Shown here piece after piece: positions 7,839 through 34,260 of a DNA stretch of 35,185 nucleotides; within the stretch, counting starts at the first letter, position 1; every line of letters starts with the position of its first letter. The translations under genes were made by a program, and so were the position numbers. The notes under the pieces were generated by a model. It did no database searches and was not told the origin of the DNA. It saw only the letters and a program-made list of their open reading frames with translations. The stretch covers positions 62,001 to 97,185 of the forward strand of contig JYFJ02000988.1 in assembly GCA_000934665.2 (NCBI GenBank), written 5' to 3'. This stretch comes from Catajapyx aquilonaris (Eukaryota).

Positions 7839-10382
7839 AAGGAAGTGTGAACCAAGATTGTAATGTGGCTATTTAGGTGCGACTTGAAACATGATCCGAC
7901 CTGAATCTATAGTCGAGCCTGCTCCGAATATCAAATCCGGGCAATCCCAGTGCCCCGGAGAGAAAACGAGTCGGCGCGTTTTATAGGGAAGGAAAGAAAA
8001 TTGTAATTTATTACGTTCTGAAATCGCCGGCCGCTGTAATTTCTCCCATGGGCCAGATCATTAAACGCGCCTTTTCTCCAGCAAAGTTTCCTCTTCTCCA
8101 GGACTTGCCCTGGATGAAAAAAAAGTCCATACCTGACTCTGATTGCTCCAGAGCAATTTTCCCGGAACTCAAAATGGCCACAGTCAAAATCGGGACGAGG
8201 TAGCTCCCGGACACAAGATCTAATTAATTGGAGAGTGCTTCCCCGGATTGATTTAATCCGGTGATTACGGGACGCGCAGATCTATTAGGCACATTTTTTC
8301 GCGTCATAATTTTAAACGAGGCAATGTTAGAATTGAATTGAACGTCCCAGTAGCCATTAGCAGTGCTTTTTTATTATTCGTGTTTGTTCTTGGAAAGATT
8401 ATTATTCGTCTGCTGCCCTGGATCTCATTTGCACAGACCTCCTTAAGTTTTTCGCATCCGAATAGCTTAGGATTGTTAGGCGGAATTTTTGCTTTGCAAC
8501 CAGTTCTGCTGGATTTTGTATTACTTTGTTCAGCTGTGGAGTAATCTTCATGACGGAAAACAGTTATTCAAGCCGATAACAACATCAATTAAGAGCTATT
8601 ACAACTGTGCTACTTTTCTTGTTAAGCGGTGCATCATTTCAATTGGTATGTACGAATTTAAATTCAGTGCTTTTGCAACTTTCGTTTGTTTCTAAATTGC
8701 AATTTCTGAATATAAATATTCTAGTGATGTCAGCAATCAAAAGTTGCCAACATGAATATACGGACCTAGAATATTTCTCAGGTGATTAGCAATCCTCGTG
8801 TGGGTTGTTCCCAATTCCGTAATTTACCATCAGCGGGATCCATTTATAGCTTGCTCAGTGCATTGCCTTTTCAAGGACCTATACAAGTACAGCAAGCTAA
8901 CTCATCACCAAACTACTCCAAAGCCAATTTTTATTCACAAGTTTTACTCGGAGCTTGTTTTATTTAAACAATCGACTTTGCCAGTTAATCAAGTTGAACG
9001 GCCCTCGACCAGGAAAATGCTTTAACATGAGTTCAGATCAATATAATAAAGGCTAGAATCCAATATGGATGCAGTGCAGGTAATATTGGCATTTCATCAC
9101 TGTAAATTACTGGTTGGTTCTTCACTATTAATTAAAATACAGCATGGAAGCCATGTGGAAGCATTAGTTGCATAGTTTATGTGAGTAGGAATAATTGGTC
9201 AATGCAGCCTATAAGTTACATTATGCTTGCAACTGCAGGTATATATTTGTGGATAGTAAAAGTGACATAGTGCTCCAATAGTCTTTGCTAATACATAATG
9301 ATTATGCTGTATTTTAATCAGTTACTTTTAGAGGATATCAACAGTATTAGTTGATAAATTCGACCCAATTACAGCAACTATACAGCGACTAAAATGAAAT
9401 GAATTTTCGACGCATAATTTTTTTAAAATGTGGAATAGGGCCTATCAATGATGTTGCTTTTATTTAAACAATTCGCAACTTCTCTCCTTGCCTATCTCCA
9501 TTTCGCATATAAGCCTGCCGGCCTTCACTTCCAAATAAAAAAAGTGCACTGTACTTTTATAATTGCCATATGCCATGCATAGCTTTTTCCAACAAAAGTT
9601 CCAACTTTTAACAAGTACGGCATATATATCCATTGACCTATTGAGCTAGTTTGATGTAAGCCTCTCCTAGTGCATTATTCACAACTTCCAACACCAAACT
9701 TGCAAGTGGAGGGTGGTCCCAACTTTTTTCAGAAACATTAATAATGAGTAGCCTGGAGTGCACCATCGTGAAAAAAAGCGGAAGGAAGTGGGGGAAAAAA
9801 AGTCCAGTAGTTGATGCCATATTATACAGAGTGCCTTATGGAGTGTGTTGGTCGGCCAGCATTTCCGCTCGACTTGTCCCCTGAAAGAAGGGTCCGATCG
9901 GCCACTGGCCCCATAACTTCACACAACTCGTGAAGGAAAATGGAACCTCTCTCCCACCCCCCCTCCTCTTCCAGTCCCAATACATAAGTGTGATTAAGGG
10001 GGTTGGGTGGAAAAAAAGGAGTGCTTTTCACTCCGCTTCCGAGCACCAGTCGTTTTCCGGCCAGCCCCCCGATTAGAAAACGGGCCCTGGCAAAAGTTTT
10101 GCGGGTTTCCAAAATGATATTGGCCTCCGGGACTGGTGAATGGGCGAAAGGGAACTCTCTTCATGCCGACGCCTGAAAGTCTACTGCATTCCCCCCCAAT
10201 GGCCTCTAGGGATTCGGGCCTGATCAGCACCCTTTAGAGGACACCACTGGAATCACCAGGCCAAACTAATGCAACATGGACCCCAGTGACGTCACATCCC
10301 AGGAAAAGTAGGTCGATCAGAGGCAGGGAATTTGAATCTGAAAATTTTCTTCCATCATATATCATCATCAGGGGTCGAAATA

Positions 10383-10758
10383 TTAGCATGGAGTGCTTAA
10401 TAGTTATTAAGTAATAATAATAATAATTGGGTGTAGTGCAGTACCTCAGCTGAGGTCATGACACGGACCTTTATTGCCAAGGTGTACATGAATTTGGACA
10501 ACGAAGAGCCATTGTCCGAGGGCAGGGTGACTGGGAGGGGATGTGCAGTGCAATGTCGGCACTATGGTCATTTTGTGAGCTCCCCCGGGTGGTTCGTCTA
10601 TCGGAAATCCCACCCTAGACGAAGCCGGAGACGACCCCGAACTCCGCACGAGATGCCCGGGCTTGGTATCGAACCCGGGACCCTTCCAACCGTGGGCGCA
10701 TACGTTACCGCAGTGCCACTTCGCCTTCCCTGCTTAATTATTAAGCACTCCATGCTAA
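10383..10758. repeat. Perfect 20-bp palindrome split by a SINE insertion
   Basis: TTAGCATGGAGTGCTTAATA (10383-10402) is the exact reverse complement of TATTAAGCACTCCATGCTAA (10739-10758). Confidence 0.9.
10412..10730 (-). mobile_element. tRNA-derived SINE (~319 bp)
   Basis: Minus-strand head GGGAAGGCGAAGTGGCACTGCGGT (A box, 10707-10720) ... GGTTCGATACC (B box, 10665-10675). The body TGCGGAGTTC..TCTCC..GTGGGATTTCCG resembles the post-tRNA segment of V/Meta-type SINEs (from memory). It has a 3' hairpin ACCTCAGCTGAGGT and a (TTA)n tail at 10412-10429. Imperfect TSD: TGCTTAATAGTTATTAAG (10394-10411) and TGCTTAATTATTAAG (10731-10745). Confidence 0.85.
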
Positions 10759-12948
10759 AGTAATTTGCACTCCAGAGGTAAGTCTTGCAAACTTCTTTGC
10801 ACCTGGTCAAAAAATTTAAGATTCGACCCCCTGTTATGTGCATATCTAATCAAAGAGTTGCTTCCATTACTCTCTAAGAGAGGAGGTCGAAAGGTCGAAA
10901 ATAAGGATGACTTAATAGGTGTACTTATAGGGCTTATAGTTAGGCAATGAGGCAGCTTCCTTCTTTTTCTGGGGGTAAAATAATGCCGTCTTGGTGAATG
11001 GGATTTTGTGGGTAATTAAAAAGTTTTAATCAGACTTCTCAGTTTTCCAGAAAACGGAGGATTATTAAAAGAAGCCGAGTCCTAAGGCCCCCTTTGCTTG
11101 TTTTTGTTTCCTTGCGTACTTTTTTTTCATTCTCCATCGATTCCTAAACTTCATTAGCGCTGGCTTAAAGGCAGAGGGACGTACAATTTATTTTTTTAAA
11201 TGGTACTGTACACAATTGGGGGTTCACTTGAGCGTCTAGTTACCTCGGAGCGTAACGTCACCTTTTCGTCATCAGCAGTCTGTGTTCGGTTCGTTTTCTA
11301 TTTGTCCGACTTGTTCCCAAGGGCGGATTGACAAGGAAATTAGTGGAGGCTAAATCTGTCCCGACTTTTCCTTGGGAATGACCAATGGGAAGTGGCGACA
11401 TTCAGTAAGGAAGCCAAAGAAGGTCACCTAGAAGTCTCTTCCGATAACACGCCGAAGGTCCAGTTGACTTCAATTTCATGTTTACAACCACTTTTGTTTA
11501 TCTACCCGCTCTTCTTTCTTTGTATATATAAAGGGGGGCTGAGTTATGACGTAACTGTTTTCTGGACTTACGAGTTTTGGGGACCAGCGAAAGGAATCCT
11601 TCAAACGGGACTAATGATCGACTTATCAAATAGGGCAGGCTGAGGTTTATGAGTGGTCAGTTACGACCGCAAAGTCTGCTCAGAGAGAGAGAAAAAAAAG
11701 TATGGTTTTGCAATGTCTCGGTAACTGGACAGGGACAAAGAAGGCGGTGCCGGGTTATACCGCTAATTCGCCGGTATGACCTTTTTATCTCGCAATGGTC
11801 GAGTATATTCCATCGGCTTGCTTCATGACAGTCAACATGGGTGACATTTAGAAGACGGGTGGAGATGACTTACATACGGTTTTTGTTGAAGGAAAATTGT
11901 CTTGTTACGTGACTTGGAAGTGTTAGAAAGCAAAGCCGGAAGGTTTGGTTGGTTCAAGATTTGGCGGACAGATAGAGCTCAACCTTTTGTGTGACGTCAC
12001 CTTGCTCTAATTATTCTGCCGAGTGGGTGACGTATACTATTACAAGAGAAAAAGATAATTGCTGCCAGGTAATTATTGCACAGGTAGCTTATATGAATGG
12101 ATGAGGTACACTCCTATAGAAAGTAACTTGGAAATTGTTAGCCAATGTAGCAGATTGAGTCCAAGTAAATAGTCTATTGCTATATGGTCCGCTCTTTGTT
12201 CCTTGTTTGTTGTTGTTATGTTTAACAATTTTGAAGGTCACTTTTCAAGGCAGACGGTCAGTTATACACAATATGCTAGGCACAGTTAGGTATATATTTA
12301 ATTCAGCCTTTCAATGTTCGCAATGTTACCTTTGGGCCACTCTTTGGCCAATAATTACCATCATCTTTTTCACAATTTTCATTAATACGACGTACATATG
12401 AAATTATTATCGTAACTAATTTACAAAATCTTGTAAAACATGTAACGCGTTTGTGTACATTTTGTTCGACAACGAGATTACAGGTCATGCTCACTTATTG
12501 ACCGAGACAGAGACAGAGGGAGAAAAAAAAGGGTTATGTTTTTCTTCGAGTCGTCGCAGGAGTATGTTTTCTTTCTTTGAGAGAGAGAGAGAGAAAAAAG
12601 CTGTAAGAATCTAATGGAAAGCCATTTCCGGTCCTTTCCTAATTAGTTGACTCTGGAGGAAATGCCGGGGCATCAAGTACGGTGAAGTAAGTTCCAATGG
12701 AGCTGTCTTCTAGTTGGCAACAAAAGCGTGACAAAAGTCCCAACCGTCGGCTTCAATAGTTGATGTCGTGCCCAGACATGTCTTGCGGACTTATTTTTTC
12801 GCAATCAAACCAAGCGTACACTCCGATTTTTCCTTCCACTTGACAATTATGGTTCAAAGACACTCAATAACAACATATAGGATGGAGCTATACTCATTAT
12901 GCCACGAACATATAATTAATTAACTCAACTTATGAAAGCACTGCAGTG

Positions 12949-12988
12949 TTTGCCAAATTTGCCAAAATTGGCCAAAATTGCCAATTTG
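12949..12988. repeat. Short tandem repeat, about 4 copies of a 9-10 bp TTGCCAAA(A) unit
   Basis: tttgccaaatttgccaaaattggccaaaattgccaatttg read directly. Confidence 0.75.
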
Positions 12989-13566
12989 TATAATATTGCG
13001 TATTGCAAAAAGAATCGGCGAAAGATAACCAGACCTAATATCTGGACTGGCGACCAATGTTCTTTTGATCAGAAATAAACGGAGACGACGTTGAATTAAG
13101 AGGCAATGGAGTTGGAGGAATCCGGAGGGGGGAGAAAAATTCAATTTGGCATCAGAGTGTGGTTATGGGGCGAGAGGGGCCACTCTGCAAAAGACATCGC
13201 AGATTCCACGCACGGAAGCACTTCTACCCACTGGCACCGATTCAAAACTTAGGGCTCCTCCCCCGAAGCACTTGGACCTCAAAAAAAAAAAAAAAACTTT
13301 TCCTTAAAACTTCCCAGATTCCGGACTGATGAAGGAGGAGGAAAAAAAGGGAGAAGATAAAAAAAAATTACATATACGGTACGATAAAAAGGAAGAACTA
13401 ACGGGATAAAAGCATGTGATCAACACGTTCGTGTTCTTGAATTTTTCAACTGGTGTTGCTGGTGGTTAGGCTACGTAATTTTTGTTAACAACTTGTGGTG
13501 ACATTACATAACTCCGGATGCAAATGTACCCTCGTCAGAGAAAAAACTGCAGGTTAATTTTTTTAA

Positions 13567-14221
13567 CGAGCACAACCGAGTGCGCACCCTCACCGCGCAG
13601 CTCTACGACCTCGGAAACGCCGCAAATGTCGGCCATTTTGTTCCCCTCTCCCCAAGCGTAGCGTTGGAAATACATGCAGCGTTTATTTTACCGGTACATC
13701 CACCCAGTCCGTTAAACCAACCCCCCCGATGGTATCTCCACCTTATCGTGATGGTGGGGGTTTGCGTCTCTCCCGTGACCCCAAGAGCTATGCCGGCGGT
13801 AGCTTCGTCTACTGGTAGGGCCACCCAAGTCGGACAGGTCTTTGGGATAGGAGACAGACTAAGAGAGATACCAGTCTTTTCTCTCTTCTTTTTCCTCTTC
13901 GTTTCTCCCTCCATCTGTCCCACCTTTCTGTATTCTTACAGCCATAGTTGCTTTGGCTTCTTCTCAATAAACCCAACCCAACCAAACCGTTAAACCAAAT
14001 AACGATAGGCGTCACACCAGTCGTGTTTTATGAGCATGTGCAGTAGTATATGCTTGCGGATTCAGGGACATGATTGGAGGAAGGAGCCAGGTGGAGGAGG
14101 GGCTGAACGTGACGTCGTATAGTTCTTTGGTTTAACGGACTATAGAAAGCTTATGCACGTATCATTGATAATTCCAACCGTGCAATCTGCGCGAACTGTG
14201 GCGCGCATTCGGTTGCGCCCA
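13567..14221. mobile_element. Degenerate MITE (PIF/Harbinger-like) hosting the 266-bp retro-insertion
   Basis: Outer inverted repeat GAGCACAACCGAGTGCGCAC (13568-13587) vs 14201-14220, 16/20 identical with all mismatches transitions. Inner inverted repeat AGTCCGTTAAACCAAA (13706-13720 plus 13999 once the insert is removed) vs TTTGGTTTAACGGACT (14126-14141), 16/16. TAA flanks both sides (13564-13566, 14222-14224). Confidence 0.65.
13721..13986 (+). mobile_element. Non-autonomous bipartite retroelement: LINE-type structured 5' RNA motif, pyrimidine spacer and I/Nimb-like 3' tail
   Basis: Exact 12-bp TSD CCGTTAAACCAA (13709-13720, 13987-13998). The 5' part CCACCTTATCGTGATGGTGGGGGTTTGCGT..GAGCTATGCCG..GTAGGGCCACCCAAGTCGGACAGGTC matches the conserved 5'UTR motif I recall from RTE/BovB/Expander and I-group LINEs. 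The 3' part is a hairpin AGCCATAGTTGCTTTGGCT (13940-13958), AATAAA (13966-13971) and a (CCCAA)n tail. No tRNA head and no credible ORF. Confidence 0.85.
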
Positions 14222-15484
14222 TAAATAGTCGCAAAAGTAAATCAAATTGTAACAACATTGAGTGTTAGTTTCGTCTCACTGATAGTCACTGCTAACTTAT
14301 CAGTACTACCATTGCCAACACTAGCAGGGACTATTAGTGGGACGAAAATTCCACCTATTATTGTTTGCATGTTAAATTCATAAATTGAGCAGTGAACCAC
14401 CCTGTAGCCTTCTCTATCCGGGGGGGGCAGGCATTTATGGCGTGGGGAAGATGGATCCCGTGTTCCAGACTGTATCATCTCGGACTTTCCTGGATTATCC
14501 GGATGGGAACTGGGGAAGCATGAATGCGAGAGGAGGATGGCCTCCGGGAGATATTTCCTCTCCGGATTAATAGTAACGGGGCTGCCCCGGAAATACGCAC
14601 CGGGGCAAAAGGGAGGGGGAAAAAAAAGAGGCATCTCAGCTTCACATCCGGACCAAATAAGCCCCCCCCCCCATTTTATACGGGCACTGCTCCAAACTAG
14701 ATGGATATCATGAATAAGTACCTCCGATTATTTTAAAGGGGGGGAAAGTATAGAAAACCGTGTGCAATTAATTCTGAGAGCAATTTGGTGGAAAAAAGGG
14801 GCTTCTTTTTCTGTCTGCTTTAAAGGCTCTTGTGAGGTTATTTCGGTCAGTAATTGGGGGCTTAGCCGCACGTTCGCTTCCCTGGCACCGATTAAACTGT
14901 GGCGTCCACCTTATTCCCTTCCCCAGCAGCAGCAGCAGCAAAGGGTTCAAACTCCAGGAGATAGACCGCTTAAGGCCGCAACTATCCCATTTGAAACCCA
15001 CCTTATCTCCCATGGCAATATTCGCCACAACAAAACTTTCTCACGACACTGATGCTGCAGCTCTTGGAATTTTCCGCCTCATATACCTTTTTTGTTGTTG
15101 TCTCTGCGGTTCCACCACAGAGAAGGGGTCATGATTTTTGTGGGATCAGTGTCGACATATTTTTGTGCTAATAATTTTTGGTCCGAATTCTTGACAAAAC
15201 CGAGAGGAATTTGACCCACTTGTCAATTAAGAGATAACTGCAGGTCTGGCCGTAGTTATGTTACACTGGGTAATTTTATGAGAGGAAATTTTTGTGGCTC
15301 AGATGGAATTTAAATTCCACGTATTATTGATCGGGGCTTGTACTACGAGGAGCAATATTTAATTTGGTTTATAGAAGCCAGCAGAGGGTTTAAACTTTCA
15401 TGTATAATAACGTTATACTGTACTATCGCATGGGGGGAATACAGCTCCGCAAAAAGAGACTGCTTTTGACCGAAGGCAACTGAT

Positions 15485-15878
15485 TAACTTGAAAAACATT
15501 TTTGACTTAATATCATTGGTTTTCACCAAATGAATATTGCAATGATTACATATGCTTTTCGCATAACAGATTAGTCGCAATTCATGTAGAAATTACGTTT
15601 GCAGTATAGATTATTTATTAGAGGTTGCATACGTAATTTCTACATGAATTGCGACTGTTATGCGAAAAGGATTAATATGTAAAATATGATATCATTTGAA
15701 TTTGAATTATTTGGTGAAAACCAATGATATCAAGTTAAAAATGTTTTCCAAATTATGTTTGCAAAAATATTAAAGACTGCAAATGTAATATCTACACGAA
15801 TTATTGCGACTAATCGGTTATGCGAAAAGCATTCATAAAATACGTATATCATTTACATTCATAATTTTTTGGTGAAAA
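15485..15878. repeat. AT-rich inverted repeat (~120-bp arms) followed by a third, partial copy of the right arm
   Basis: Left arm 15485-15604 is the reverse complement of right arm 15627-15755 (e.g. AGTCGCAATTCATGTAGAAATTACGT vs ACGTAATTTCTACATGAATTGCGACT; ATATCATTGGTTTTCACCAAAT vs ATTTGGTGAAAACCAATGATAT). 15777-15878 repeats the right arm (TTGCGACTAATCGGTTATGCGAAAAGCAT..TTTGGTGAAAA). Confidence 0.9.
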
Positions 15879-18376
15879 GTCAAAAAAATATTATAGGCCT
15901 ATATATGGTTTGCAGGTTTGGTTGCAAGTAAGTGAAAATGCAACAACATCTAATATCCTCTAAGTATAGTCAGCACTAAAACGGCGCTTATTAGTAATAT
16001 TAAAAAGTTGGTAACGTACCATTAGGCGCCAGCCAAAAATTCTATTCAAAATAATGAAAGGCCCTAATTAATTTCCCCAGCCCATGAGCCTTGATCCAGT
16101 TAGCGGCAAGGTACTTTTTAAGCTCCCCGAAAAAAAAGGAGCGAGAAAAAGAGAGACGTGTACATTTAGCTCAAAGATTAAATCCTATTTGCACCGTGCA
16201 GATTTTCCTCGGGATCAAACCATGCCGTATGAATTTGGCTCGCTCTCTCCTGTGATCATTAGCTAAACTATAAGCTCTTTTCACCTTTTCGCAAACCTCC
16301 TCTCAAAGCACCTTTTTCATATACGAGTATATACTCTGCAGATTTATATTCTAAAAAAAAAAATCCCTACTGAACTATACCACACTATACTTATGCTAAA
16401 GGTAGGCTATTTTTGTTGGTTAATCAAAAGCACTTTTGCGGCCTGGTTTGACTTTGCAAAAAAATGTTAGGTGATCGATTTGCATTGTCATGGACAGCAG
16501 GCTTCAATCAAATTTGTTTCGAACTCATTGATGTTACTAGATTTATATTTTTTTCCCCCCCATTGGGATGTGTGGATTGAATCGATAATGCATGTGGGGA
16601 AAAATTGAGCTGAAACATTAATTATGCATAAGGTGGGACCTTGACGGATCAGGTGTGGCAGAAAAATATATTTACATTGCAAATCTGTGCTCAAACAACG
16701 AGTCCGGTATGCTCGACGTGGTTTGTGGTATGCGGGAAAAAATAATAATGGGACAAAAACACAGGGCTTTCCAATTTAGAGTCAGGAATGAGCACTGTAA
16801 GGCACGGTGTAATGATATAATGCTCAAAACAAAAAGCCATGTCACTCATGCTGATCCGTCAGTGACACCAAATCTCTCAGCAGCAAATTGCGCTGCCGCT
16901 ATGTAGGAATCCAGCACGCAAAAGCTAGGTGCAGCACAGAATTGTCATAAAATACAATCAGTCTCAAACTGACATCAGAGTAACAACAGAGGAGGAAACG
17001 ACAATAAATATATTCAGAATATTTGCATAAATCCTGATTGTTATCTGCACAAATCTTCCATAAACCAACCACAAATCTGCTGTAATCCCATTAGTTTACA
17101 CCTCTTCAAGGAATTTTACCACACCGAAACCACCTCAAAATGTGAATGAAAATATTTGCAGTACTTAATACTAGAAGTATAGGACATTGTAGAGTTCTTC
17201 TTTCGCAAAAAGCAAATGGAAAATAGGACGATTTGCAATCATTGTCGCATCACTGCATAGAAAACATGCAGAGAGATTTTTATGCCTCTCTATGGTCATA
17301 TAAATGCAATGGTTATGAAATCATACATTATTTTATGCTTTGGTGTAACATTCCTCGGTTTTAAAAACAGAAATATGCAAAAAATGGGTATATGACGTTA
17401 ACGATGACCGGCAATTAGCTGAAATGGCAGGAATGAAGTTACCCAGTGGCCCTTCATGTCTCATAACATCTTCCAGAAGATTAGGTCATAGCTTACAAGT
17501 GTCAGAGAAATGGGACTAGCTGTACCAGATAACCAGTTGTTCTTCATAAATTCATCATCTCGGGTAATGGAAATTTGGAAAAAAAAAGGATTAGAAAATG
17601 GTAAAAGCAGGGCATCTTTATTTGTTTTGCATTTTTTTCCAGGTCAATCCATTTATATGGGAACAGGGGCATTAGCAAGTTATATCTCCATGCAGTTTTC
17701 TCGGACAGGATGTGAGCAATAGTAAGTCATATTTTATTGCTTTACAATCCCTAATCCGACAGGATTGCAGCATATATACAAAATATCCAATTAAAATATT
17801 TTCATTCGTCAGTTTGTGTTACGTCAAACATTGCCTTGCCCAAATTCTGACACAAGCTGCAAAAAATTAATTTGTAGGTCATTTTACACATTTATACATT
17901 TAGGTATCAAAAGTACAAAAATGTTATAAGAAGCATCCATAAATTATATAACACTACGATCATGAATCACTGGGGGATTTCCGGATGAAAATTATTACAA
18001 TAAAACTATTACCATGGACCACTTGTGTAAAAAATACAACAATGCATAGGTCAACATGAATACTTTAAAAAGTATCTGGAGATCATTATGACGTGTTACA
18101 ATAATTGGGAGAGGCTAGGTTAGGACATCACCTGTAGACATTATTAAATTGATACAGCAGTAAATATGAGGGGTACATCAAAAATAAAGTCATATAACTT
18201 AACGTGAGCCCATCAGCACCGGGTGAAATCAGTCACCTCTTTACACCACCACCTTATCAAATATTGGGAATGATTTTGGCAGTGTCCTTTCTGCAATAAA
18301 AATGAGGGGAAAAAAAATCAGATTGTAATAGAAGAACAGTGGTAATTTTCGAAGAGCATTCTCCTCCCACCACTGG

Positions 18377-20422
18377 TCAGTTGTCTCTGTCGAAAGTGGT
18401 CAGCTCCATCAACGTCTGCATCTCAGGTCCCCACTTCTTCCCATTAACAACCATAACAGTGGGAAGCTCCACTCGGATTGATCTGAACTCATATACCTGT
18501 GAAAAAGAGGAACTGGTAAAGATCTTCACCAGAACGACATTAATTTGACAAATCCATCACAGGCAGTCTCGCTAACCTGGTCCTTGTAGGTGACTCTCAC
18601 TTCAGATAAAAATGGGTCTGGAATGGCAACACAGTCTCCAATAATGACTCCTTTTCCAGCAGCTAAATTGTAAACTGTGACAGCAACACATGTCTTCATT
18701 TCATCAATCATGCAGAAAGTGCTGTAGGAAAAGAAATACACAGCAATGAGCGAGGATTGGTAAAATTCAGATGTATAATTCCAACCGTAATTAAACCCAG
18801 TAAAGAAAACTGAGATGAAACAAAGCCACAAGCTTACAACGGCACAGTCCCTTCTGTTTGAACACTGCAGACGACACTCCCAAGAATAACTTTGCCAGTG
18901 TTGAGACCATTCTGCAGGTCATTCAGGCCAACGACGCTGCGCTCTCCTGCTTTGACTTTGGCTGCTAAGGGACCGAGACTCTTCTCCTTCTGATTCGACA
19001 TGGTCTCCACCATCTGTCTCAATTGCCGGGCCTTCACCTGACCACTTTGAGCTGATAGCTTGTTCACCTTGTCCAAGTACCTCACCAGGTCATCCCGCTG
19101 TTTACGTGGATCCTCCCAGTTTGGGTCAAGGGCCAAACTCTGCTCAAAGGATGCCAGGGCGCTCTGGTGTTCCTCAGCATAGCGCAATGCCTGCCAAGTT
19201 AATTAATTGTCATTCACAGTACAATACGTTACTTACAATATGTTACTTGTCAAGAATAACTCACCACTCCCTTGTTGTATGAGAGCTCTGAGGTGTTTCT
19301 AGAAATTGGATCCTTTTCCTGCATAAAAAGACACAAAATTTCATAAGATGTCAACCCAATTCAATGCCTGAAGCAAACTCACGGCCTGAGCATATGCAGA
19401 CAGGCAGAGCTTGAGTGTGTTTGGATGCTGCGAATAGGAAAAGTACAGGGAAAGATGCGCATTGCCCAGGACACCCCACGATGTTCCGTCCAAAGGATCG
19501 ACTTCCACTGCCTGCTTTGCCGTCGACACCCCGTCCAGCAGGTTCTTCTTCCGCTGCACCTGGTTCTCTGTTGGCAACTGACGAAGTACTATGGACAGGT
19601 TCCGATACGACTCCTTGGTTCCGCCCTGTGCAGATACGCTTTCATTACACTCCTCATAAACTTCTACATCACTTTAATCATACCTGATCGATCGCAGATT
19701 TGAAGCATCTCATCGCACCTTGCAGGTCCCCTTTCTGGTAGAAGCACTCACCAAGCTCATTCCAGGCCTCGATCATCCTCGGATCAAGCTTGACCGCTTT
19801 AGACAGCAGCGACTCCGCCTCTGGATTGTACACACACACAACATTCAGGCTACGGCCACGAAGGTAGTGGTACCGAGACCGCTCCTTTGACTGTACGGAA
19901 TCTGGAAAATTGCATCAAGTGCCGACAGTTACTCCTAAAATATTGTCACACATTTCCTGTCCAAATAATTAATGAAATGTACAGTGTTTGACGTAATGAC
20001 TGTTCAATAATGCCAGAAAATGCTTATAAAAGCCGTACTTTTGAGCCTGTCAAAATGCTCCATGGCCACGGCAAGCCTCTTCTTAATCTCATCCTCCTTC
20101 TGTCCCGCCTGGTCCAAACTATGGTCCTCGAAGTACCTTTCCTTCAGCCGGTACAGGGCGTCCACTTCACTCTAATTAATGTGCAATAATAATAATTAGA
20201 ATTGAAACAAAAAAAGGGAGCTTCAATGCGTGGGTGGGCAGTCCTGTCACTAGTCACCACACGCCTTAGTGCACATATAGACTCATTGTTTTATGTCGAT
20301 GCATTGTAGGCACATTAAGGATAAATTTAGAGTACATAATGAGCCGTAAAATGGCCAGAACTTGCCTGTAAAAATGAAATAACATCGACTTCCGAAGCCT
20401 GTCCATCTCTTTCGGCAGCCAT
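18377..20422 (-). CDS. TTC5: Tetratricopeptide repeat protein 5 (TTC5/STRAP), TPR plus C-terminal OB fold, 440 aa
   Basis: Exons (minus): 20422-20366, 20171-20039, 19901-19684, 19625-19383, 19318-19265, 19190-18838, 18721-18577, 18496-18377. Total 1323 nt with consistent phases. Translation shows TTC5 motifs: EVDALYRLKERYFEDHS, GRSLNV..EAESLLSKAVKLDP..EAWNELGE, RNLSIVLRQL, DGTSWGVLGNAHLSLYF..LSAYAQAEK, LDPNWEDP, VILGSVV..VPFTFCMID..AVTVYN..GVIIGDCVAIPDP, SIRVELPTVMVVNGK. Confidence 0.96.
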
Positions 20423-20879
20423 TTTTTTTTCAGAACGCAGGGTTACCAGCCTTATCGCATTTTAGTACAATGTAAATTATTTATTAATTAGAATTAAAGC
20501 ACCGGTATGCCACTGTAAATTAAGTAACACCCAAAGTAATATTTATAATATTAAATTAGTGCTCGGAATGTCTAATCGGTCCGCGACTTTTCACTATGAA
20601 AATACGGTGCATGTTAATACGGTAGGCGCGCGATTTAAAAAAATATTAAATTGAAACAAGTCAAGCGAAGCACAAGTTATTTACTTACACAGACTTACAC
20701 ATTGCGCAATTATTAATTACGCATACATGATGTAATAATTTATTGCTGCGTGTAATTCCTGCGTGTACTCCGTGTAGTTCCCACTAATGTAATAACATGG
20801 CAGTAATATTTTGCAAATAATTTCAACTGCTGAGCTGCAGTTGTCTTCGGCAACGCTTCCGTTCTTTTGCATCATAATT

Positions 20880-20918
20880 AACACGTCTCCTTATAATAAT
20901 TAAATAAGGAGACGTGTT
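20880..20918. repeat. Perfect 15-bp palindrome with 9-bp AT spacer
   Basis: AACACGTCTCCTTAT (20880-20894) - AATAATTAA - ATAAGGAGACGTGTT (20904-20918). Confidence 0.9.
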
Positions 20919-20993
20919 GAAAAGAAGAGACATGTGTCAATAATGAGAGAAAATTACGTCACACTTTTCCTGTGGCTACAATGCACACCTGGA

Positions 20994-21012
20994 CCAATCA
21001 GAACTCGCCAGC
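20994..21012 (+). promoter_or_regulatory. ER stress response element (ERSE)-like motif
   Basis: CCAAT-CAGAACTCG(N9)-CCAGC against consensus CCAAT-N9-CCACG, about 200 bp upstream of the ATG of an ER chaperone that is a known UPR target. Confidence 0.55.
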
Positions 21013-21053
21013 TTCACTTCATACGCCCAATGATCAACCATATGTACTTGGGC

Positions 21054-21131
21054 ACATAGGCCGATAGATGGCAGGGGCCTGTCCTATGCTTTTCTACTGT
21101 CCCGGTGGTGCTGCTATCTTGCGGCCTATGT
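21054..21131. repeat. Small inverted-repeat element (21-bp arms) immediately upstream of HYOU1
   Basis: ACATAGGCCGATAGATGGCAG (21054-21074) vs the reverse complement of 21111-21131 (ACATAGGCCGCAAGATAGCAG), 18/21 identical. Confidence 0.75.
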
Positions 21132-21206
21132 AACTAATTATGATCAGCTGTGGCGGTGTGTGTTATAAGAGTGTCTCTGGACTCCTCGGAGTTTGTTCGA
21201 AAAAAG

Positions 21207-24200
21207 ATGGCGAGAGAGGATCGGCTGTGTCCATGTGGCCGGTCTGCCCCGGGGCCTGCCCCGAGGCGGCCCGCCCCGTGGTTGGCCCTGGTTGTGGGGC
21301 TGGCCTGCCTCATCCTGGCCCCACTGGGGGCGGAAGGGGTGGCCGTGATGAGCGTGGACCTCGGATCCGAGCACATGAAGATCGCGGTGGTCTCTCCCGG
21401 CGTTCCGATGGAGATCGTGCTCAACCTGGAATCGAAGAGGAAGACTCCCGTTGTCGTCTCTTTTAGAGACCGGGAGAGGCTCTTTGGAGAAGACGCACTC
21501 AACACTGGAGTCAGGTTCCCTGCAAGCATGTACAGGTAAATATCATGGTCATACGCTGATGTGTGCGCAGTCTGAATCTGACATGTATTAAATGTATGGC
21601 AGAAACATACAACAACAATAGTAATCTGGGTATTAGTGCACGAGGCACATGGAACAACAGGCATGTACGAGCATCACTTTTTACCCAGACGTACTTAGTA
21701 GCCTATTAAGACACTTGTACAGTTGTTGGATTTATTTTAGAGGCGGTAGCCCGTAAGTAAGACCGTACAACCATTTTCAGCAATGAATTTTATTTGCAAG
21801 AAATCGTGGTATTTTTTTAAAATTTTATTATTATTTATAGTCGTTAAGGTGCATTTACATGTGCGCAATTTGACGAGCGCAATCGTCGCCGAGGCTGAAA
21901 TTAACAATCGGCTTTCGCCTCATACAATATCGGTTACTTGGGTTACTTACCGTCGGCGATGACTTCGCTCGTCAAATTGCTCACATGTAAATGCACCTTT
22001 AATGTTCATGTGCTTTAAAAATTTAACATGTAAAATTTTTTGCAATGAATAATGAGATTATGGGACTGCTGTATTACATCTACGGGGTTATCGCTTGAGC
22101 TTGATTAGGGCTGATATGACGTAATGCGACATGCAGTCTGCATGGGATGTGGGTTGTTCTGAATAAGTTGATATTTATAATCATCCTGACCTGTGCAATT
22201 ATTTGCAGTAAAATGACGTTAAATGAGCACTGTGACGCTGTTCGGAACATAAATTAATGTTGATTTTTATTGTGTAATTTTTTTTATTTACTAATTGTGT
22301 GTGTTTTGGTTGGCAAAAATTATGCCTCTGCCGCTTGGATCTCTGGTACCAGCGGAGGACAGTGGCATTGAATTAGTGCATGTACCGTGCAGTTTCCTGT
22401 GAGGATCATCCGGATCAAGGACCATGAACATTTTGGCAGACAGTATTTTTCATGTCAGGAGTGTGATGTTGCGGTGCATCCAAGCAAGGGCCTTGTCCAC
22501 TAGGACCATTGCCAAATCGCCTGGTGCCGTCATGTCTCAGATGTGTGTCAAAATTTTCAAAATGAGCATCTATTCATGAGATGAAGTCATTTTTGGTCCG
22601 AAGTTGGGATCAGGAGATATTTTTTAAATATGTCAATTTTAGGCTGCTACATCAGTTAAGAAAAATCCTTGTATTTTTGCCTATTTTTGGACAGTTTGGG
22701 TTAATTTTGGTGTCAAATTAAACCTTTTTCTTTTCTCTTTCGATATAAGGTACAAAAGTGGAACGTAGTGCCGCAGATATCTATTTCTGACCATTGAAAT
22801 GGAATTTTAGCAATGTCTACTTACTGTCATAAAATTACTGCATAAAACTTTTCTGGAATAATATTGAACAATTCTTTTGTTTCACCCTGAACAATAGCTT
22901 TAAAGATTTTTCACTGAGCATTCAAAGTGAATTTTTAGTAATGTTTTACCTTGGTGCGTTCAGTAAGCCATAGCTCACAAACCACTAACACGTACGTATG
23001 ATATATTTTGTGTAGAATGCACCTGCTATGATTTAAAAATCAGAAGGGTGTTTGTTGCGGTTATCAAATTTTTAACAATTATATTGGACAAAAAACACAT
23101 CATTTTTATTTTGCATAATTTGTACAATAATTGTCAAAAAATTGTTGTTATCACGATGCAATGTTTGTAATCAGACTGCTTGAAAAAAAGTACCAAATGA
23201 TGCGGAATTTCTGTGCTATAACTTTCAGGGTAGTCTCCAATTTATGTTTCTAATAAATAATTGGAGATTATATCCTTAATTTGCATTAACACCTTTACCC
23301 AGCATGCCTTCAAATGTGATAATTTTCGTCACTTAACCAAATTAACATCCTGCCTCTTTCTCAGCTACATGCTGGATCTCGTAGGTAAAAGCCCCGACAA
23401 CCCAGCAGTGAAACTCCATCGAGCTCGCTTCCCTTACTACGAGTTCGACCGAGATGAGTTGGAGAAAGGTCGGGTGGTTTTCCGCTATGACAACGAGACC
23501 AGTTTCAGTCCAGAGGAGCTAATTGCAATGGTGCTGAGTAAGGCCAGGGATTATGCGCAGGACTTTGCCCTGCAGCCGATCAAGGACGTCGTGGTCACCG
23601 TTCCTGCCTTCTTCAACCAGGCGGAGAGACGAGCCATTATGATGGCTGCCGAACTTGCTGGGCTCAAGGTATTAGGATTGGGCTCTGAAAAAAGTTGTTT
23701 TATCAATTCGCCACGATTGAAATTTAAGCTAAGCTGGAAATGTGTGGTTCTCGGACAATGTGCGTTAGTGATTGGGGAAAATTAATGCGCTGTTTCCCTC
23801 TCCAGGTTCTGCAACTAATTAATGACAACACTGCCGTTGCTCTGAACTACGGGATGTTCAGACGCAAAGACTTCAACACAACCCCGCATTTCATTTTGTT
23901 TTACGACATGGGAGCATCTTCCACTGTGGCCACTGTGGTTGGCTATCAGGTGGTGCGCACCAAGGAGAGAGGAGGCCTTAGCGAACAGAATCCACAGCTG
24001 AGCATCCTTGGTGTGGGTTATGACCGGACGCTGGGAGGACTGGAAATCCAGCTAAGGCTGAGGGACCACCTGGCCAAGTCGTTCAATGAGATGAAGAAGG
24101 CCAAAGGGGATGTCTTCGACAGTCCGAGGGCTCTGGCCAAGCTCTTCAAAGAGGCTGGGAGAGTTAAAACTGTGCTCAGTGCCAATCCAGATCATTATGC

Positions 24201-33085: not shown

Positions 33086-34260
33086 ATGGCCTGGCAGTGC
33101 TAATTTGAAAAAAAACAACGTTGCATTGGAAGCGTTAAATATGACAGATTGAAACAATGAGTTAAGTAGCATTTTGCCTATTAGGTGGCAGCCTTCTCAC
33201 AAAATGTGGTGAGTGTTACATGTGTATTCACTGCGAAGCATACTTAGCCACTTGATTGAACTTGTGAGGAAATGGTTACTTTGCAAGTTAACGATCAGTG
33301 ACAAGGACATTGTTACATTGATGGCTATGGTTTACTCTAACTGTAAGTACGGCGCAATAGTCTTTCAGTTAAGTCTTCCCTTCAATGGCATTTTTCTCAT
33401 AACAAATCTACGTGTTATTTCAGCAGTGTCGTTTTAGTGGCTATTTAAATTACTTCCCAATATAATCAGGTCACCACTGTACATGACCTAGTACGAAAAA
33501 TCACCTGCATGTCCATGTCACAAATATGAATTAGTAGAAAACGAATAATGTTTTAATAAGATCTGCAGGCTGCAACATCGCTCTTCCATATTCCTAATTA
33601 TAATTGTTATATGATTGTAACATTAGAATTATAAGTGTAGATATATAGAATATAAGTTGTATGATAGCATTTATTAGAATAATTATAGATATGTATAGAT
33701 ATACGTAGAATATAAGTTGTACATTCATATTCTAATTGAATGGAAGTGATGTTGGGGCCTGCAGGTGTTATTAAAACATGATTAGTTTTCTACTAATTCA
33801 TATTTTGTAAGATGGACATGCAGGTGACTTTCATGCTAGGTGAACTTCACTGGTGTTCGGCAAGTACAGTGGTGCACTGATTGTATCAGGAAGGGATTTA
33901 AATAGCCACTAAAGAGATACTGCTAAATAACAAGCAGATTAGTTATGAGAAATATGCCATTGAAGGGAAGACTTAACTGAAAGACTACTGCGCCGTACGT
34001 GCATTTCAATCATGAAATTAAACCATATAATAGCCATCAATGTAACAATGTCCTTGTCACTGCTCGTTAACTTGCAAGGTAACCATTTCCTCGCAGGTTC
34101 AATCAAGTTTCTAAGTATGCTTTGCATTGAATATGCAAGCAACACTCACCACCACATTTTGTGAGAAGGCTGCCACCCAATAAGTACTCAACTCATTGTT
34201 TCCATTTGCCTGATGTTTTCAATGCAACTTTTTAATAAATTAGCACTACTGCCAGGCCAT
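33086..34260. mobile_element. Long foldback / inverted repeat (~1.17 kb, ~515-530 bp arms), probably a non-autonomous DNA transposon
   Basis: Arm 33086-33600 is the diverged reverse complement of 33733-34260 (e.g. 27-nt exact match, 33184-33210 vs 34151-34177). The AT-rich spacer has a duplicated TAGAATATAAGTTGTA (33646, 33706). ORFs 33213+ and 34145- are mirror translations of the two arms. Confidence 0.9.

What the first reader, a model, noticed from the sequence alone, without database searches (positions are those of the whole stretch)
13721..13986. Headless mini-retroelement built around a compact multi-stem RNA (candidate ribozyme, internal promoter or translation element)
Seen: a 266-bp insert with a perfect 12-bp TSD, AATAAA and a (CCCAA)n tail, so it moved by target-primed retrotransposition. 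It has no tRNA/5S/7SL head and no ORF. Its first ~145 nt fold into a closed domain: TGGTATCTC/GAGATACCA (13730-38/13865-73), CCACC/GGTGG (13738-42/13753-57), GGTTTG/CAGACT and TCTCT/GGAGA (13759-71/13850-60), CCCAA/TTGGG (13780-84/13842-46), CCGGC/GTCGG (13793-97/13829-33), GGTAG/CTACT (13798-802/13809-13), GGT/ACC (13814-16/13823-25). Knowledge (from memory): this motif (CCTT..GTG..GGGG.TTGCGT..GAGCTATGCC..AGGGCCACCCA..CAGGTC) is conserved at the 5' ends of RTE/BovB and I/Nimb LINEs, and other LINE 5' ends carry self-cleaving ribozymes (HDV-like, twister, hammerhead). It does not match those known cores. Inference: the element keeps only the two cis-acting RNA modules needed to be mobilised. 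The 5' domain may be an uncharacterised catalytic or 5'-end-defining RNA, possibly with a degenerate kink-turn at GTGA (13775-78).
Basis: partly seen in the sequence, partly recalled or inferred. Interest (0 to 1): 0.8.

Follow-up and report, generated by a model that had tools for sequence, protein, structure and literature searches.

The report
Mini-retroelement headed by HDV-like ribozyme
The 266-base insert is a protein-less, cut-down copy of an RTE-type jumping gene whose folded front end has the double-knotted shape of the hepatitis-delta family of self-cutting RNAs, a known way for such elements to trim their own 5' end, so it is real and well built but not a new kind of RNA.

Summary
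A 266-bp insert (13721-13986) lies between perfect 12-bp target-site duplications. It ends in AATAAA plus a short CCCAA-type tail, and has no tRNA/5S/7SL head and no ORF.

Its first ~152 nt are a real structured RNA.

- P1 is the element's first 7 bases paired with the 7 bases after P3.
- P1.1 is a single pair that switches cleanly between A-U and G-C (30/31 of 62).
- P4 is a large conserved arm.
- J4/2 carries a conserved A-C-N-A-A.

The duplication abuts the first base of P1, which is the predicted cleavage site. In related loci the same domain precedes an endonuclease/reverse-transcriptase ORF of RTE type.

The element is therefore a bipartite non-autonomous RTE derivative, a published class, carrying an HDV-like ribozyme, as published for RTE. 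No Rfam model detects it, and cleavage is untested.

The parts
13709..13720 (+). Left target-site duplication, CCGTTAAACCAA
   Evidence: Identical 12-mer at 13987-13998.
13721..13727 (+). P1 5' strand (CCCCCCC). Its first base is the predicted self-cleavage site and the first base of the insert.
   Evidence: Pairs with 13753-13759 at 6 of 7 positions in the alignment register. In homologues, 21 of 40 sequences have 7/7 pairing with their own 3' strand, against 7.9% of 1,274 cross pairs.
13728..13730 (+). J1/2 linker (GAT)
   Evidence: Unpaired columns 11-13 of A3. A is the commonest base at the middle position (29/42) and T at the last (26/42).
13731..13738 (+).
   Evidence: 8 of 8 pairs with 13865-13872. 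All 8 pairs show compensatory changes among homologues.
13740..13752 (+). P3 hairpin: ACC (13740-42), L3 TTATCGT (13743-49), GAT (13750-52). The middle pair C13741 x A13751 is broken in this copy.
   Evidence: P3 is 90.5-94.3% paired in homologues. L3 consensus is U U R N Y G U. Nearly all sibling contigs read G at 13751 (20,249.7 of 20,279 depth in X1).
13753..13760 (+). P1 3' strand (GGTGGGGG, T13755 unpaired), lying immediately after P3
   Evidence: All 7 P1 pairs show changes on both sides.
13761..13761 (+). P1.1 partner: T13761 pairs with A13745 in L3 (second pseudoknot)
   Evidence: Counts are AU 24 / GC 15 / other 2 in A3, and GC 31 / AU 30 / GU 1 / unpaired 0 in the 64 distinct CM-aligned sequences. 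The covariance model did not contain this pair.
13762..13857 (+). P4 domain, a long conserved arm. Helices: TTG/CAG (13762-64/13855-57), TCTCC/GGAGA (13769-73/13850-54), CCC/GGG region (13778-84/13842-48), CCGGC/GTCGG (13793-97/13829-33), hairpin GGTAG/CTACT (13798-802/13809-13). Conserved unpaired stretches: AGAGCTA (13784-90), GGTAGGGCCACCCAA (13814-28), ACAGGTC (13834-40).
   Evidence: Helices 6, 8 and 9 are 88-97% paired with many compensatory changes. AGAGCTA is at least 90% conserved although it was not part of the search pattern. This is the most repeated part in the source organism.
13858..13864 (+). J4/2 (ACTAAGA) with candidate catalytic C13859
   Evidence: Column counts are A 42/42, C 36/42 (5 T, 1 A), N, A 40/42, A 39/42.
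13865..13872 (+). P2 3' strand (GAGATACC)
13873..13926 (+). CT-rich stretch, shared with most sibling copies. Probably the remainder of the parent's 5' UTR (inferred).
   Evidence: Summed contig depth stays at 50,000-100,000 up to 13926, then drops about five-fold. A recurrent loose end lies at 13927.
13927..13986 (+). 3' module: about 39 nt, then AATAAA (13966-71), then CCCAACCCAACCAAA (13972-86). Presumed 3' end of the parent LINE, recognised in trans.
   Evidence: The sequence itself. Depth is about 11,000-16,000 against about 30 in the unique flank. Contigs of two kinds bridge 13926/13927 with at least 31 letters on each side. Homology to a LINE 3' end is not testable here.
13987..13998 (+). 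Right target-site duplication

Best explanation
The insert is a bipartite non-autonomous derivative of an RTE-type LINE. It keeps the LINE's 5' UTR (13721-13926) and its last ~60 nt with a short simple-repeat tail (13927-13986), and has lost the ORF.

- P1: 13721-27 with 13753-60
- P1.1: A13745 with T13761
- P2: 13731-38 with 13865-72
- P3/L3: 13740-52
- P4: a 96-nt conserved arm
- J4/2: contains C13859

**Inferred life cycle.**
1. A master copy is transcribed as part of a longer Pol II transcript.
2. The ribozyme cuts immediately 5' of its own first base, giving the RNA a defined, knot-protected 5' end.
3. An RTE endonuclease/reverse transcriptase made elsewhere recognises the 3' module and copies the RNA into a nicked target. 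This produces the 12-bp duplication.

**Shown versus inferred.**
- Shown: the fold (by covariation), the 5' end coinciding with the start of P1, the multi-copy family, and the link of this domain to APE+RT ORFs.
- Inferred: cleavage itself, mobilisation in trans, and the origin of the 3' part.
- This particular copy carries a broken P3 pair, so it is probably a dead daughter copy.
For: **The structure**
- On 42 sequences (window plus 41 loci) the pseudoknotted HDV-like structure has 85.3% of cells paired, against 34.0-49.5% slid.
- It has 241 double-change cells against 32-62 slid, and 34 of 42 pairs change on both sides. 0 of 500 shuffles reach any of the five measures.
- On 64 distinct CM-aligned sequences the figures are 87.0% paired against 33.5-50.0%, and 385 double-change cells against 39-98.

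**P1.1**
- Counts are AU 24 / GC 15 / other 2.
- On the larger set they are GC 31 / AU 30 / GU 1 / unpaired 0, on an alignment whose model did not include the pair.

**P1**
- 21 of 40 sequences pair 7/7 with their own 3' strand, against 7.9% of 1,274 cross pairs.
- 13 of 25 distinct 3' strands have a perfect own partner.

**Core letters**
- J4/2 reads A 42/42, C 36/42, A 40/42, A 39/42. The L3 G is 40/42.

**Agreement with the published definition**
- The architecture matches: a nested double pseudoknot, cleavage at the first nucleotide of P1, and a core formed by L3 and J4/2 (PMC4908430, passage).
- P1 of about 7 nt anneals to the ~7 nt immediately downstream of L3/P3 (PMC3774820, passage).

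**5' end and RTE link**
- The duplication abuts C13721, the first base of P1.
- In the 11 sequences of the L017 group, similarity begins at the P1 start or one base earlier (read off A3).
- 4 of 10 downstream ORFs hit Exo_endo_phos at E<=0.01, though only one is above Pfam's cut-off.
- 18 of 26 longer relatives of the L054 ORF carry Exo_endo_phos plus RVT_1, are 727-1,035 aa long, and several sit on contigs of about 3.2 kb.

**Family size**
- 1,684-1,801 contigs per run were laid, and contigs bridge 13926/27.

**Precedent**
- RTE-N1_Lch is 262 bp. RTE-N2_Lch is 286 bp, made of the 5' 214 bp plus the 3' 70 bp of its parent (PMC5786205).
- RTE ribozymes cleave at the 5' junction (PMC3774820 citing Ruminski 2011).
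Against: - No Rfam HDV-like model (or any other family) matches the window at E<=10, or 20 related loci at E<=1.
- The MFE is no better than shuffles (z = +0.10).
- In fixed register P1 is only 71-73% paired. Its G-rich 3' strand gives a high background: cross pairs average 5.44 of 7.
- The first P1 pair is C-G or U.G, not the G.U that I recall for HDV and CPEB3.
- This copy has a broken P3 pair and an unpaired T in P1.
- The loci were chosen by a motif inside P4, 12 of 54 representatives were dropped as truncated or deleted, and the sequences are related. The shuffle control therefore overstates significance. The slid control and the P1.1 switch are the sounder evidence.
- RTE clade membership rests on ORF architecture and source names, not on a tree.
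- The parent LINE and the 3'-end homology could not be checked, because no genome is held.
- Self-cleavage is untested.
Confidence: 0.8

Rival explanations
1. The conserved part is a twister-type ribozyme, truncated or rearranged, rather than an HDV-like one. This would match the RTE-clade element Perere-3 of Schistosoma.
For: - A review states that truncated but active twister ribozymes are conserved at the 5' end of RTE-superfamily retrotransposons (PMC7761336, passage citing unpublished work).
- Perere-3 carries a twister variant at its 5' end, with the TSD next to the cleavage site (PMC8501958, abstract and two Results sections).
- By eye, the distal P4 region here shares several things with the twister rows of that paper's Table 1: a GC before a GUAGC-type hairpin, the motif CCCAAGC followed by CGG, and an AAAGG stretch.
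Against: - No Rfam twister model matches.
- The topology differs. Here the CCG strand lies before the hairpin and forms one continuous covarying helix with GCCGG. There is no counterpart of the 3' GAGGG loop that forms pseudoknot T1.
- A twister-type cut would fall about 55 nt inside the element, yet the insert and the related copies start at the HDV-like P1.
- P1 and P1.1 covariation is unexplained by a twister fold.
- The resemblance was judged by eye only. No alignment with the published sequences was run.
Confidence: 0.06
2. The domain is a structured but non-catalytic 5' UTR element, such as a protein-binding site, translation element or promoter-associated structure. On this view it only resembles the HDV fold.
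For: - The most conserved letters outside my search pattern lie in unpaired parts of P4, for example AGAGCTA, which is at least 90% conserved. That suggests a sequence-specific partner.
- In R2 the element's protein binds a pseudoknot within the extended ribozyme, and HDV-like ribozymes promote translation (PMC6765202, passages).
- Kojima speculated that conserved RTE 5' UTRs bind regulators (PMC5786205, Discussion).
- No cleavage data exist for this family in what I could read.
Against: - All defining helices of the ribozyme fold covary, and the J4/2 C and L3 G are conserved.
- The 5' end of the insert sits exactly at the P1 start.
- An ORF-less element has no use for a translation element.
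- This rival is compatible with an added, second function of P4 rather than a replacement of catalysis.
Confidence: 0.1
3. It is a one-off internally deleted or 5'-truncated LINE copy, or a SINE with an unrecognised Pol III head, and not a propagating bipartite family.
For: - There is only one copy in the 35-kb window.
- The parent LINE was not seen.
Against: - Contigs of two kinds in the source organism bridge the presumed 13926/13927 junction with at least 31 letters on each side, at roughly 86-90% identity.
- Summed depth over 13927-13988 is hundreds of times that of the unique flank.
- There is no tRNA, 5S or 7SL match.
- The 5' end is complete, not truncated.
Confidence: 0.04

Closest known systems
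HDV-like self-cleaving ribozymes at the 5' ends of non-LTR retrotransposons (R2, R4, L1Tc, Baggins, RTE; Ruminski et al. 2011, Eickbush & Eickbush 2010/2013)
   Same: - The fold is a nested double pseudoknot (P1, P1.1, P2, P3, P4).
- P1 begins at the element's first base.
- The core is formed by L3 and J4/2 and holds a conserved C.
- The presumed role is to release the element from a longer transcript.
- For RTE in particular, cleavage at the 5' junction is stated in PMC3774820 (passage).
   Different: - No Rfam HDV-like model detects it.
- P4 is a 96-nt, multi-helix, sequence-conserved arm, whereas P4 is described as highly variable or absent in R2 (PMC3774820, passage).
- P1.1 is a single Watson-Crick pair (A-U or G-C).
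- The first P1 pair is Y-G.
- I could not read Ruminski 2011, so I cannot say whether their RTE ribozymes are this same family.
Bipartite non-autonomous RTE elements (RTE-N1_Lch, RTE-N2_Lch, RTESINE1/2, WALLSI3, Bov-A; Kojima 2018, PMC5786205)
   Same: - It consists only of the 5' and 3' parts of a LINE.
- It has no ORF and no small-RNA head.
- It is 195-290 bp in size.
- It keeps the extreme 5' end.
- It carries a microsatellite-type tail.
   Different: - The parent LINE of this copy was not found.
- Kojima notes the striking conservation of RTE 5' regions (87% between a coelacanth SINE and a butterfly SINE) but gives no structure. He mentions the ribozyme only as a possible reason why SINEs lack the extreme 5' end.
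Twister variant ribozymes at the 5' end of Perere-3, an RTE-clade LINE (Liu et al. 2021, PMC8501958)
   Same: - A self-cleaving RNA sits at the 5' end of an APE+RT single-ORF element.
- The TSD lies next to the cleavage site.
- Short motifs are shared with the distal P4 region, by eye.
   Different: - It is a different ribozyme class and topology.
- No twister model matches here.
CPEB3 ribozyme (mammalian HDV-like ribozyme)
   Same: As I recall it, CPEB3 has a 7-nt L3 of very similar sequence, a weak P1.1 with one Watson-Crick pair, and a C-G-A-A type J4/2. This is recalled and was not tested here.
   Different: - CPEB3 is intronic, single-copy, and has a small P4.
- The Rfam CPEB3 model does not match this domain.

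Membership tests
HDV-like self-cleaving ribozyme | Five paired regions (P1, P1.1, P2, P3, P4) forming a nested double pseudoknot (PMC4908430 and PMC3774820, passages) | tested here: met
   All of the helices are present in the right order. Paired cells are 85.3-87.0%, against 33.5-50.0% slid. The P1.1 pair switches between AU and GC with 0 unpaired of 62.
HDV-like self-cleaving ribozyme | A P1 of about 7 nt that anneals to the ~7 nt immediately downstream of L3/P3, with cleavage at the first nucleotide of P1 | tested here: met
   The geometry is met. The insert's first base after the TSD is the first base of P1. The cleavage itself is inferred, not observed.
HDV-like self-cleaving ribozyme | A catalytic cytosine in J4/2 and a conserved L3 | tested here: met
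   C is found in 36/42 sequences at the expected place, flanked by A 42/42 and by A 40/42 and A 39/42. The L3 G is 40/42. Function is untested.
HDV-like self-cleaving ribozyme | Match to a curated covariance model (Rfam HDV, CPEB3, drz-Agam and similar) | tested here: not met
   No hit at E<=10 in 13400-14300, none at gathering score in the window, and none at E<=1 in 20 loci. The 96-nt P4 and the unmodelled pseudoknots may explain this.
HDV-like self-cleaving ribozyme | A G.U wobble as the first pair of P1 (recalled from HDV and CPEB3; may not be defining for the wider family) | tested here: not met
   The first pair is CG 21, UG 11, AU 1, UA 1, other 6, gap 2.
HDV-like self-cleaving ribozyme | Site-specific self-scission in Mg2+ | not testable with these tools
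   This needs an in vitro transcription and cleavage assay.
Bipartite non-autonomous RTE (RTE-N type) | The 5' part is the 5' end of an RTE-type LINE | tested here: met
   The same domain precedes Exo_endo_phos ORFs in related loci. 18 of 26 longer relatives carry APE plus RT and are 727-1,035 aa long. The clade is assigned by architecture, not by a tree.
Bipartite non-autonomous RTE (RTE-N type) | The 3' part is the 3' end of the same LINE, including its simple-repeat tail | tested here: inconclusive
   The tail and AATAAA are present and the 3' part is multi-copy. No LINE 3' end was available for comparison.
Bipartite non-autonomous RTE (RTE-N type) | No ORF, no small-RNA head, TSD, and a propagating family that shares the junction | tested here: met
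   Contigs of two kinds bridge 13926/27 (one sample only).
Twister ribozyme | P2-P4 with pseudoknots T1 and T2, and a match to Rfam twister models | tested here: not met
   No Rfam hit. By eye the strand order differs and the T1 partner is absent (comparison with the table).
SINE (tRNA, 5S or 7SL head) | A Pol III head derived from a small RNA | tested here: not met
   ARAGORN found none. Rfam found none.

The most novel reading that the evidence does not exclude
The 96-nt P4 arm may be a functional module in its own right, nested inside the HDV-like ribozyme. Two versions are open.

- It could be the 5' recognition site for the RTE protein. That would explain why bipartite elements and many SINE 'bodies' keep exactly this RTE 5' piece.
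- More boldly, it could be a rearranged relative of the twister ribozyme that heads the RTE-clade element Perere-3. In that case two self-cleaving ribozyme classes would be evolutionarily linked within one LINE 5' UTR, and this would be a natural non-circular permutation of twister, which a published search did not find (PMC10085705, passages).
Probability: 0.1. Interest if true: 0.75.

Novelty: new member of a known kind. Interest (0 to 1): 0.4.

Why it matters
It replaces 'unknown catalytic RNA' with a specific, testable assignment: an HDV-like ribozyme with mapped helices, a candidate catalytic C and a predicted cut site.

It also gives a structural reason for a published puzzle. RTE 5' regions are almost as conserved between distant animals as SINE 'bodies' (Kojima 2018), and the conserved stretch is the core and P4 arm of a ribozyme. 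In the papers I could search I found no statement of that link, but the key paper (Ruminski 2011) was not readable.

There is a practical side as well. The family is not detected by Rfam, so a model such as R1 would annotate many animal-genome copies. RTE 5' and 3' UTRs are also now used as template modules in gene-writing systems (PMC13708176, passages), where knowing the fold of the 5' module is useful.

Tried and rejected
- **Own genome.** None is held. The parent LINE, the copy count and the 3'-end homology could therefore not be obtained. Records behind the loci are not held either, so only 600-bp flanks were available.
- **Expression.** No RNA holder is listed among the sequencing runs, so nothing can be said on expression.
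- **Viral contigs.** 0 matches to the core pattern.
- **Literal sequence search in papers.** The two 14-mers gave nothing, and the 10-mers gave only unrelated hits in the 20 of 80 papers listed.
- **RNAalifold on the unfiltered 54-row alignment.** It gave only a partial structure, 19 pairs. It proposed UGGU/GCCG in place of CCGGC/GCCGG. I rejected that because only the latter shows changes on both sides.
Rejected. Its G belongs to P1, its variable position is the P1.1 partner, and its C is the J4/2 C.
- **Kink-turn at 13775-78.** No support, by eye only.
- **Thermodynamic test.** z = +0.10. It is uninformative because pseudoknots are not modelled.
- **Covariance-model coordinates for mapping 5' truncation points.** Uninformative, because all hits were reported end to end.
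- **Earlier findings of the scan.** Nothing by place or sequence. By words, only phage/archaeal theta-type ribozymes came up, with no bearing here.
- **Papers not held.** Ruminski 2011 and Webb 2009.
- **Supplements.** Kojima's supplementary figures with the RTE and SINE sequences were not opened. They could show directly whether his 'RTE 5' region' is this domain.
Full report
**1. What is in the sequence**

The window reads CCGTTAAACCAA at 13709-13720 and again at 13987-13998. Between them lie 266 bases. They start with seven C's and end with AATAAA (13966-71) followed by CCCAACCCAACCAAA.

Only four direct 12-mer repeats spaced 100-400 bp apart occur in the whole 35-kb window, and random sequences give about one. 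This one brackets exactly a unit with a simple-repeat tail. The reading as a target-primed retroposition product therefore stands.

There is no tRNA, and no Rfam family reaches gathering score in the window. A permissive scan of 13400-14300 gave only chance-level miRNA/snoRNA hits. tblastn found no RTE-like ORF in the window.

The window is eukaryotic. It holds a ligand-gated ion channel ORF and Hsp70-like frames. No genome is held for it.

**2. Is it a family?**

Contigs of four runs of one sample of the source organism (coded X1-X4, organism A) were laid on 13400-14300 at 80% likeness or better.

- 1,684-1,801 contigs per run lie on the stretch.
- The unique flank (13400-13523) has a summed depth of about 22-35.
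- 13772-13926 reaches 44,000-115,000, 13710-13771 reaches 8,500-23,700, and 13927-13988 reaches 8,900-16,500.
- The tool warns that summed depth is not a copy number, but the element is plainly highly repeated.
- Contigs of two kinds bridge 13926/13927 with at least 31 letters on each side: records 7, 18 and 26, and record 32. Siblings therefore share the arrangement.
- Recurrent loose ends lie at 13769 and 13927, and other joints lead into 13941-13943. The central part thus also occurs with other 5' and 3' continuations.
- Nearly all siblings read G at 13751, where the window has A.
- All of this comes from one sample.

**3. Relatives elsewhere**

The same pattern found nothing in viral contigs.

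Printed in register, the whole ~150-nt domain is recognisable in most loci, and several start like the window copy. 86 of the 108 loci cover the whole domain, and 53 of those differ by more than 10% from one another.

After dropping 12 rows that are 5'-truncated or internally deleted (listed), 41 loci plus the window were aligned with MAFFT (A2; A3, with nine more upstream bases).

One caveat applies throughout. The 21 positions of the scan pattern are invariant by construction, so their invariance says nothing.

**4.

It has 191 double-change cells against 26-46, and 27 of 40 pairs change on both sides. 0 of 500 shuffles reach the observed values.

- The closing stem, TCTCT/GGAGA, CCGGC/GTCGG and GGTAG/CTACT are strongly supported.
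- CCACC/GGTGG and CCCAA/TTGGG are moderately supported.
- GGTTTG/CAGACT is not supported. It has no compensatory change, and one position is unpaired in 17 of 41 sequences.
- The MFE of the window copy is no better than shuffles (z = +0.10), so the case rests on comparison alone.

**5. The fold is HDV-like**

- **P1.** The seven bases at the very start of the element are complementary to the seven bases that follow the small hairpin, and they change together between subfamilies. Examples are CTCCCCC/GGGGGAG, CCACCCT/AGGGTGG, CCTTCCC/GGGAAGG, CCACTCC/GGAGTGG, CCGCTCT/AGAGCGG, CTATCCC/GGGATAG and CCTCCTT/AAGGAGG. 21 of 40 sequences pair 7/7 with their own 3' strand, against 7.9% of 1,274 cross-combinations. 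13 of 25 distinct 3' strands have a perfect own partner.
- **P1.1.** The third base of the hairpin loop pairs with the base that follows this 3' strand. Counts are A-U in 24, G-C in 15 and other in 2.

To test P1.1 on more sequences I built a covariance model from the nested pairs only (R1). I then aligned 68 matches to it (64 distinct; A4). The P1.1 pair, which the model does not contain, reads GC 31, AU 30, GU 1, unpaired 0.

With these two pseudoknots the order of elements is P1, J1/2, P2, P3, L3, P3', P1', P1.1, P4, J4/2, P2'.

That is the nested double pseudoknot defined for HDV-like ribozymes. In that definition the cleavage site is the first nucleotide of P1, and the core is built from L3 and J4/2 (PMC4908430, passage; PMC3774820, passages).

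The whole structure scores as follows:
- On A3: 85.3% paired against 34.0-49.5% slid, and 241 double-change cells against 32-62.
- On A4: 87.0% paired against 33.5-50.0% slid, and 385 double-change cells against 39-98.

The core letters are conserved. J4/2 reads A (42/42), C (36/42; 5 T, 1 A), N, A (40/42), A (39/42). L3 reads U U R N Y G U, with G in 40/42.

**6. The window copy on this fold**

| Element | Coordinates | Note |
|---|---|---|
| P1 | 13721-27 with 13753-59 (plus G13760) | T13755 unpaired |
| J1/2 | 13728-30 | |
| P2 | 13731-38 with 13865-72 | 8 of 8 pairs |
| P3 | 13740-42 with 13750-52 | C13741 x A13751 broken; the family has G here |
| L3 | 13743-49 | |
| P1.1 | A13745 with T13761 | |
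| P4 | 13762-13857 | |
| J4/2 | 13858-64 | candidate catalytic C13859 |

The target-site duplication ends at 13720, so the inserted cDNA begins at the first base of P1. That is the expected result if the template RNA had been cut by its own ribozyme.

In the largest subfamily of loci, similarity also begins at the P1 start or one base before it (A3).

**7. Link to RTE LINEs**

Downstream of the domain many loci carry an open frame.

- 4 of 10 tested frames hit Exo_endo_phos at E<=0.01, though only one is above Pfam's own cut-off.
- A search for longer relatives of the L054 frame returned 26 proteins. 18 of them carry Exo_endo_phos plus RVT_1, at 727-1,035 aa, and several sit on contigs of about 3.2 kb. 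Some bear the name 'craniofacial development protein 2'.
- A single ORF of about 1,000 aa with APE and RT in a 3.2-kb element is the RTE build. That name is, to my knowledge, attached to an RTE-derived domain.
- I built no tree, so the clade is inferred.

**8. What is already known**

- **Kojima 2018** (PMC5786205; Introduction, first part of Results and Discussion read). It describes bipartite non-autonomous LINEs that keep only the 5' and 3' parts. They are reported for RTE, Ingi, Vingi and R2. RTE examples are 195-286 bp, among them RTE-N2_Lch, made of the 5' 214 bp plus the 3' 70 bp of its parent. The paper notes that RTE 5' regions are strikingly conserved between distant animals and only speculates on why. 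It cites Ruminski 2011 for predicted ribozymes in several RTE families.
- **Eickbush 2013** (PMC3774820, passage). It states that RTE ribozymes cleave at the 5' junction.
- **Weinberg 2019** (PMC6765202, passages). It lists RTEs among the carriers of HDV-like ribozymes.

Both the element type and the ribozyme type are therefore in print.

I could not read Ruminski 2011 or Webb 2009. I therefore cannot say whether their RTE ribozymes are this very family.

In four searches I found no paper that identifies the conserved 'RTE 5' region' of SINE bodies with a ribozyme fold.

No Rfam model matches the window or 20 loci.

**9. Rivals**

*Twister.* A review says truncated twister ribozymes are conserved at RTE 5' ends, citing unpublished work (PMC7761336). 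Perere-3 carries a twister variant there (PMC8501958).

- By eye, the distal P4 region shares a GUAGC-type hairpin, CCCAAGC-CGG and AAAGG with that paper's Table 1.
- However, the strand order differs and the T1 partner is missing.
- No twister model matches.
- A twister-type cut would fall inside the element.
- P1 and P1.1 covariation would be left unexplained.
- I keep it as a low-probability lead on the origin of P4.

*A purely structural, non-catalytic element.* This cannot be excluded without an assay. It fits the evidence less well, though a second role for P4 (protein binding) is plausible. AGAGCTA (13784-90) is at least 90% conserved, unpaired, and outside my search pattern.

*A one-off deletion product or a hidden SINE head.* argue against both.

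**10. Verdict**

The element is a bipartite non-autonomous RTE-type retroposon. [quoted passage not shown]

This copy is probably an inactive daughter, given its broken P3 pair.

It is a new member of a known kind. The residual interest lies in the P4 arm and in the structural explanation for the conservation of RTE 5' regions.

Noticed in passing
window 13555-13709 and 14020-14236: The flanks of the insert are themselves repetitive in the source organism, with summed depth up to about 10,000-18,000. Many contigs join about 13645-13697 directly to about 14156-14164, with 5-39 other letters in between. The retroposon therefore landed inside, or next to the variable middle of, another repeat family.
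   Followed up: no
L001-L108, about 5-90 nt downstream of the ribozyme (for example L017:664-750): In the LINE-bearing loci the ribozyme is followed by a second conserved block, CCTGGYCCTCCAGGTTGGGGGTTGGGC, then a covarying hairpin and an A-run. The window copy lacks this block. The downstream reading frame is often open right through it, translating as GPPGWGLG.
   Followed up: no
window 13793-13846 compared with Table 1 of PMC8501958: The distal P4 region resembles the core of Schistosoma twister variants: a GC, then a GUAGC-type hairpin, then CCCAAGC-CGG, then AAAGG. The strand order is different. The comparison was by eye only.
   Followed up: partly
window 33179-34182: A roughly 1-kb foldback: nested inverted repeats with arms of 33-123 nt at 82-97% complementarity (I1-I4 and I7). 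It looks like a foldback or MITE-type element.
   Followed up: no
window 15485-15832: A cluster of three nested inverted repeats with arms of 30-47 nt at 91-97% complementarity (I5, I8, I9). It is probably a small DNA-transposon remnant.
   Followed up: no
window 23261-26052 (+): Hsp70-like segments lie in successive overlapping frames: profile positions 68-164, 161-274, 276-382 and 499-597. This is either a frameshifted pseudogene or a gene interrupted by short introns.
   Followed up: no
window 27857-29818 (-): An uninterrupted 653-aa frame with a Lig_chan domain, just above Pfam's cut-off (32.8 against 30.8 bits). It looks like an intronless ionotropic-receptor-like gene.
   Followed up: no
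window 13859 and homologous column 166 of A3: All 5 loci that have T instead of the J4/2 C read ATG where the others read ACG. This is consistent with CpG decay of dead genomic copies rather than a functional variant.
   Followed up: partly
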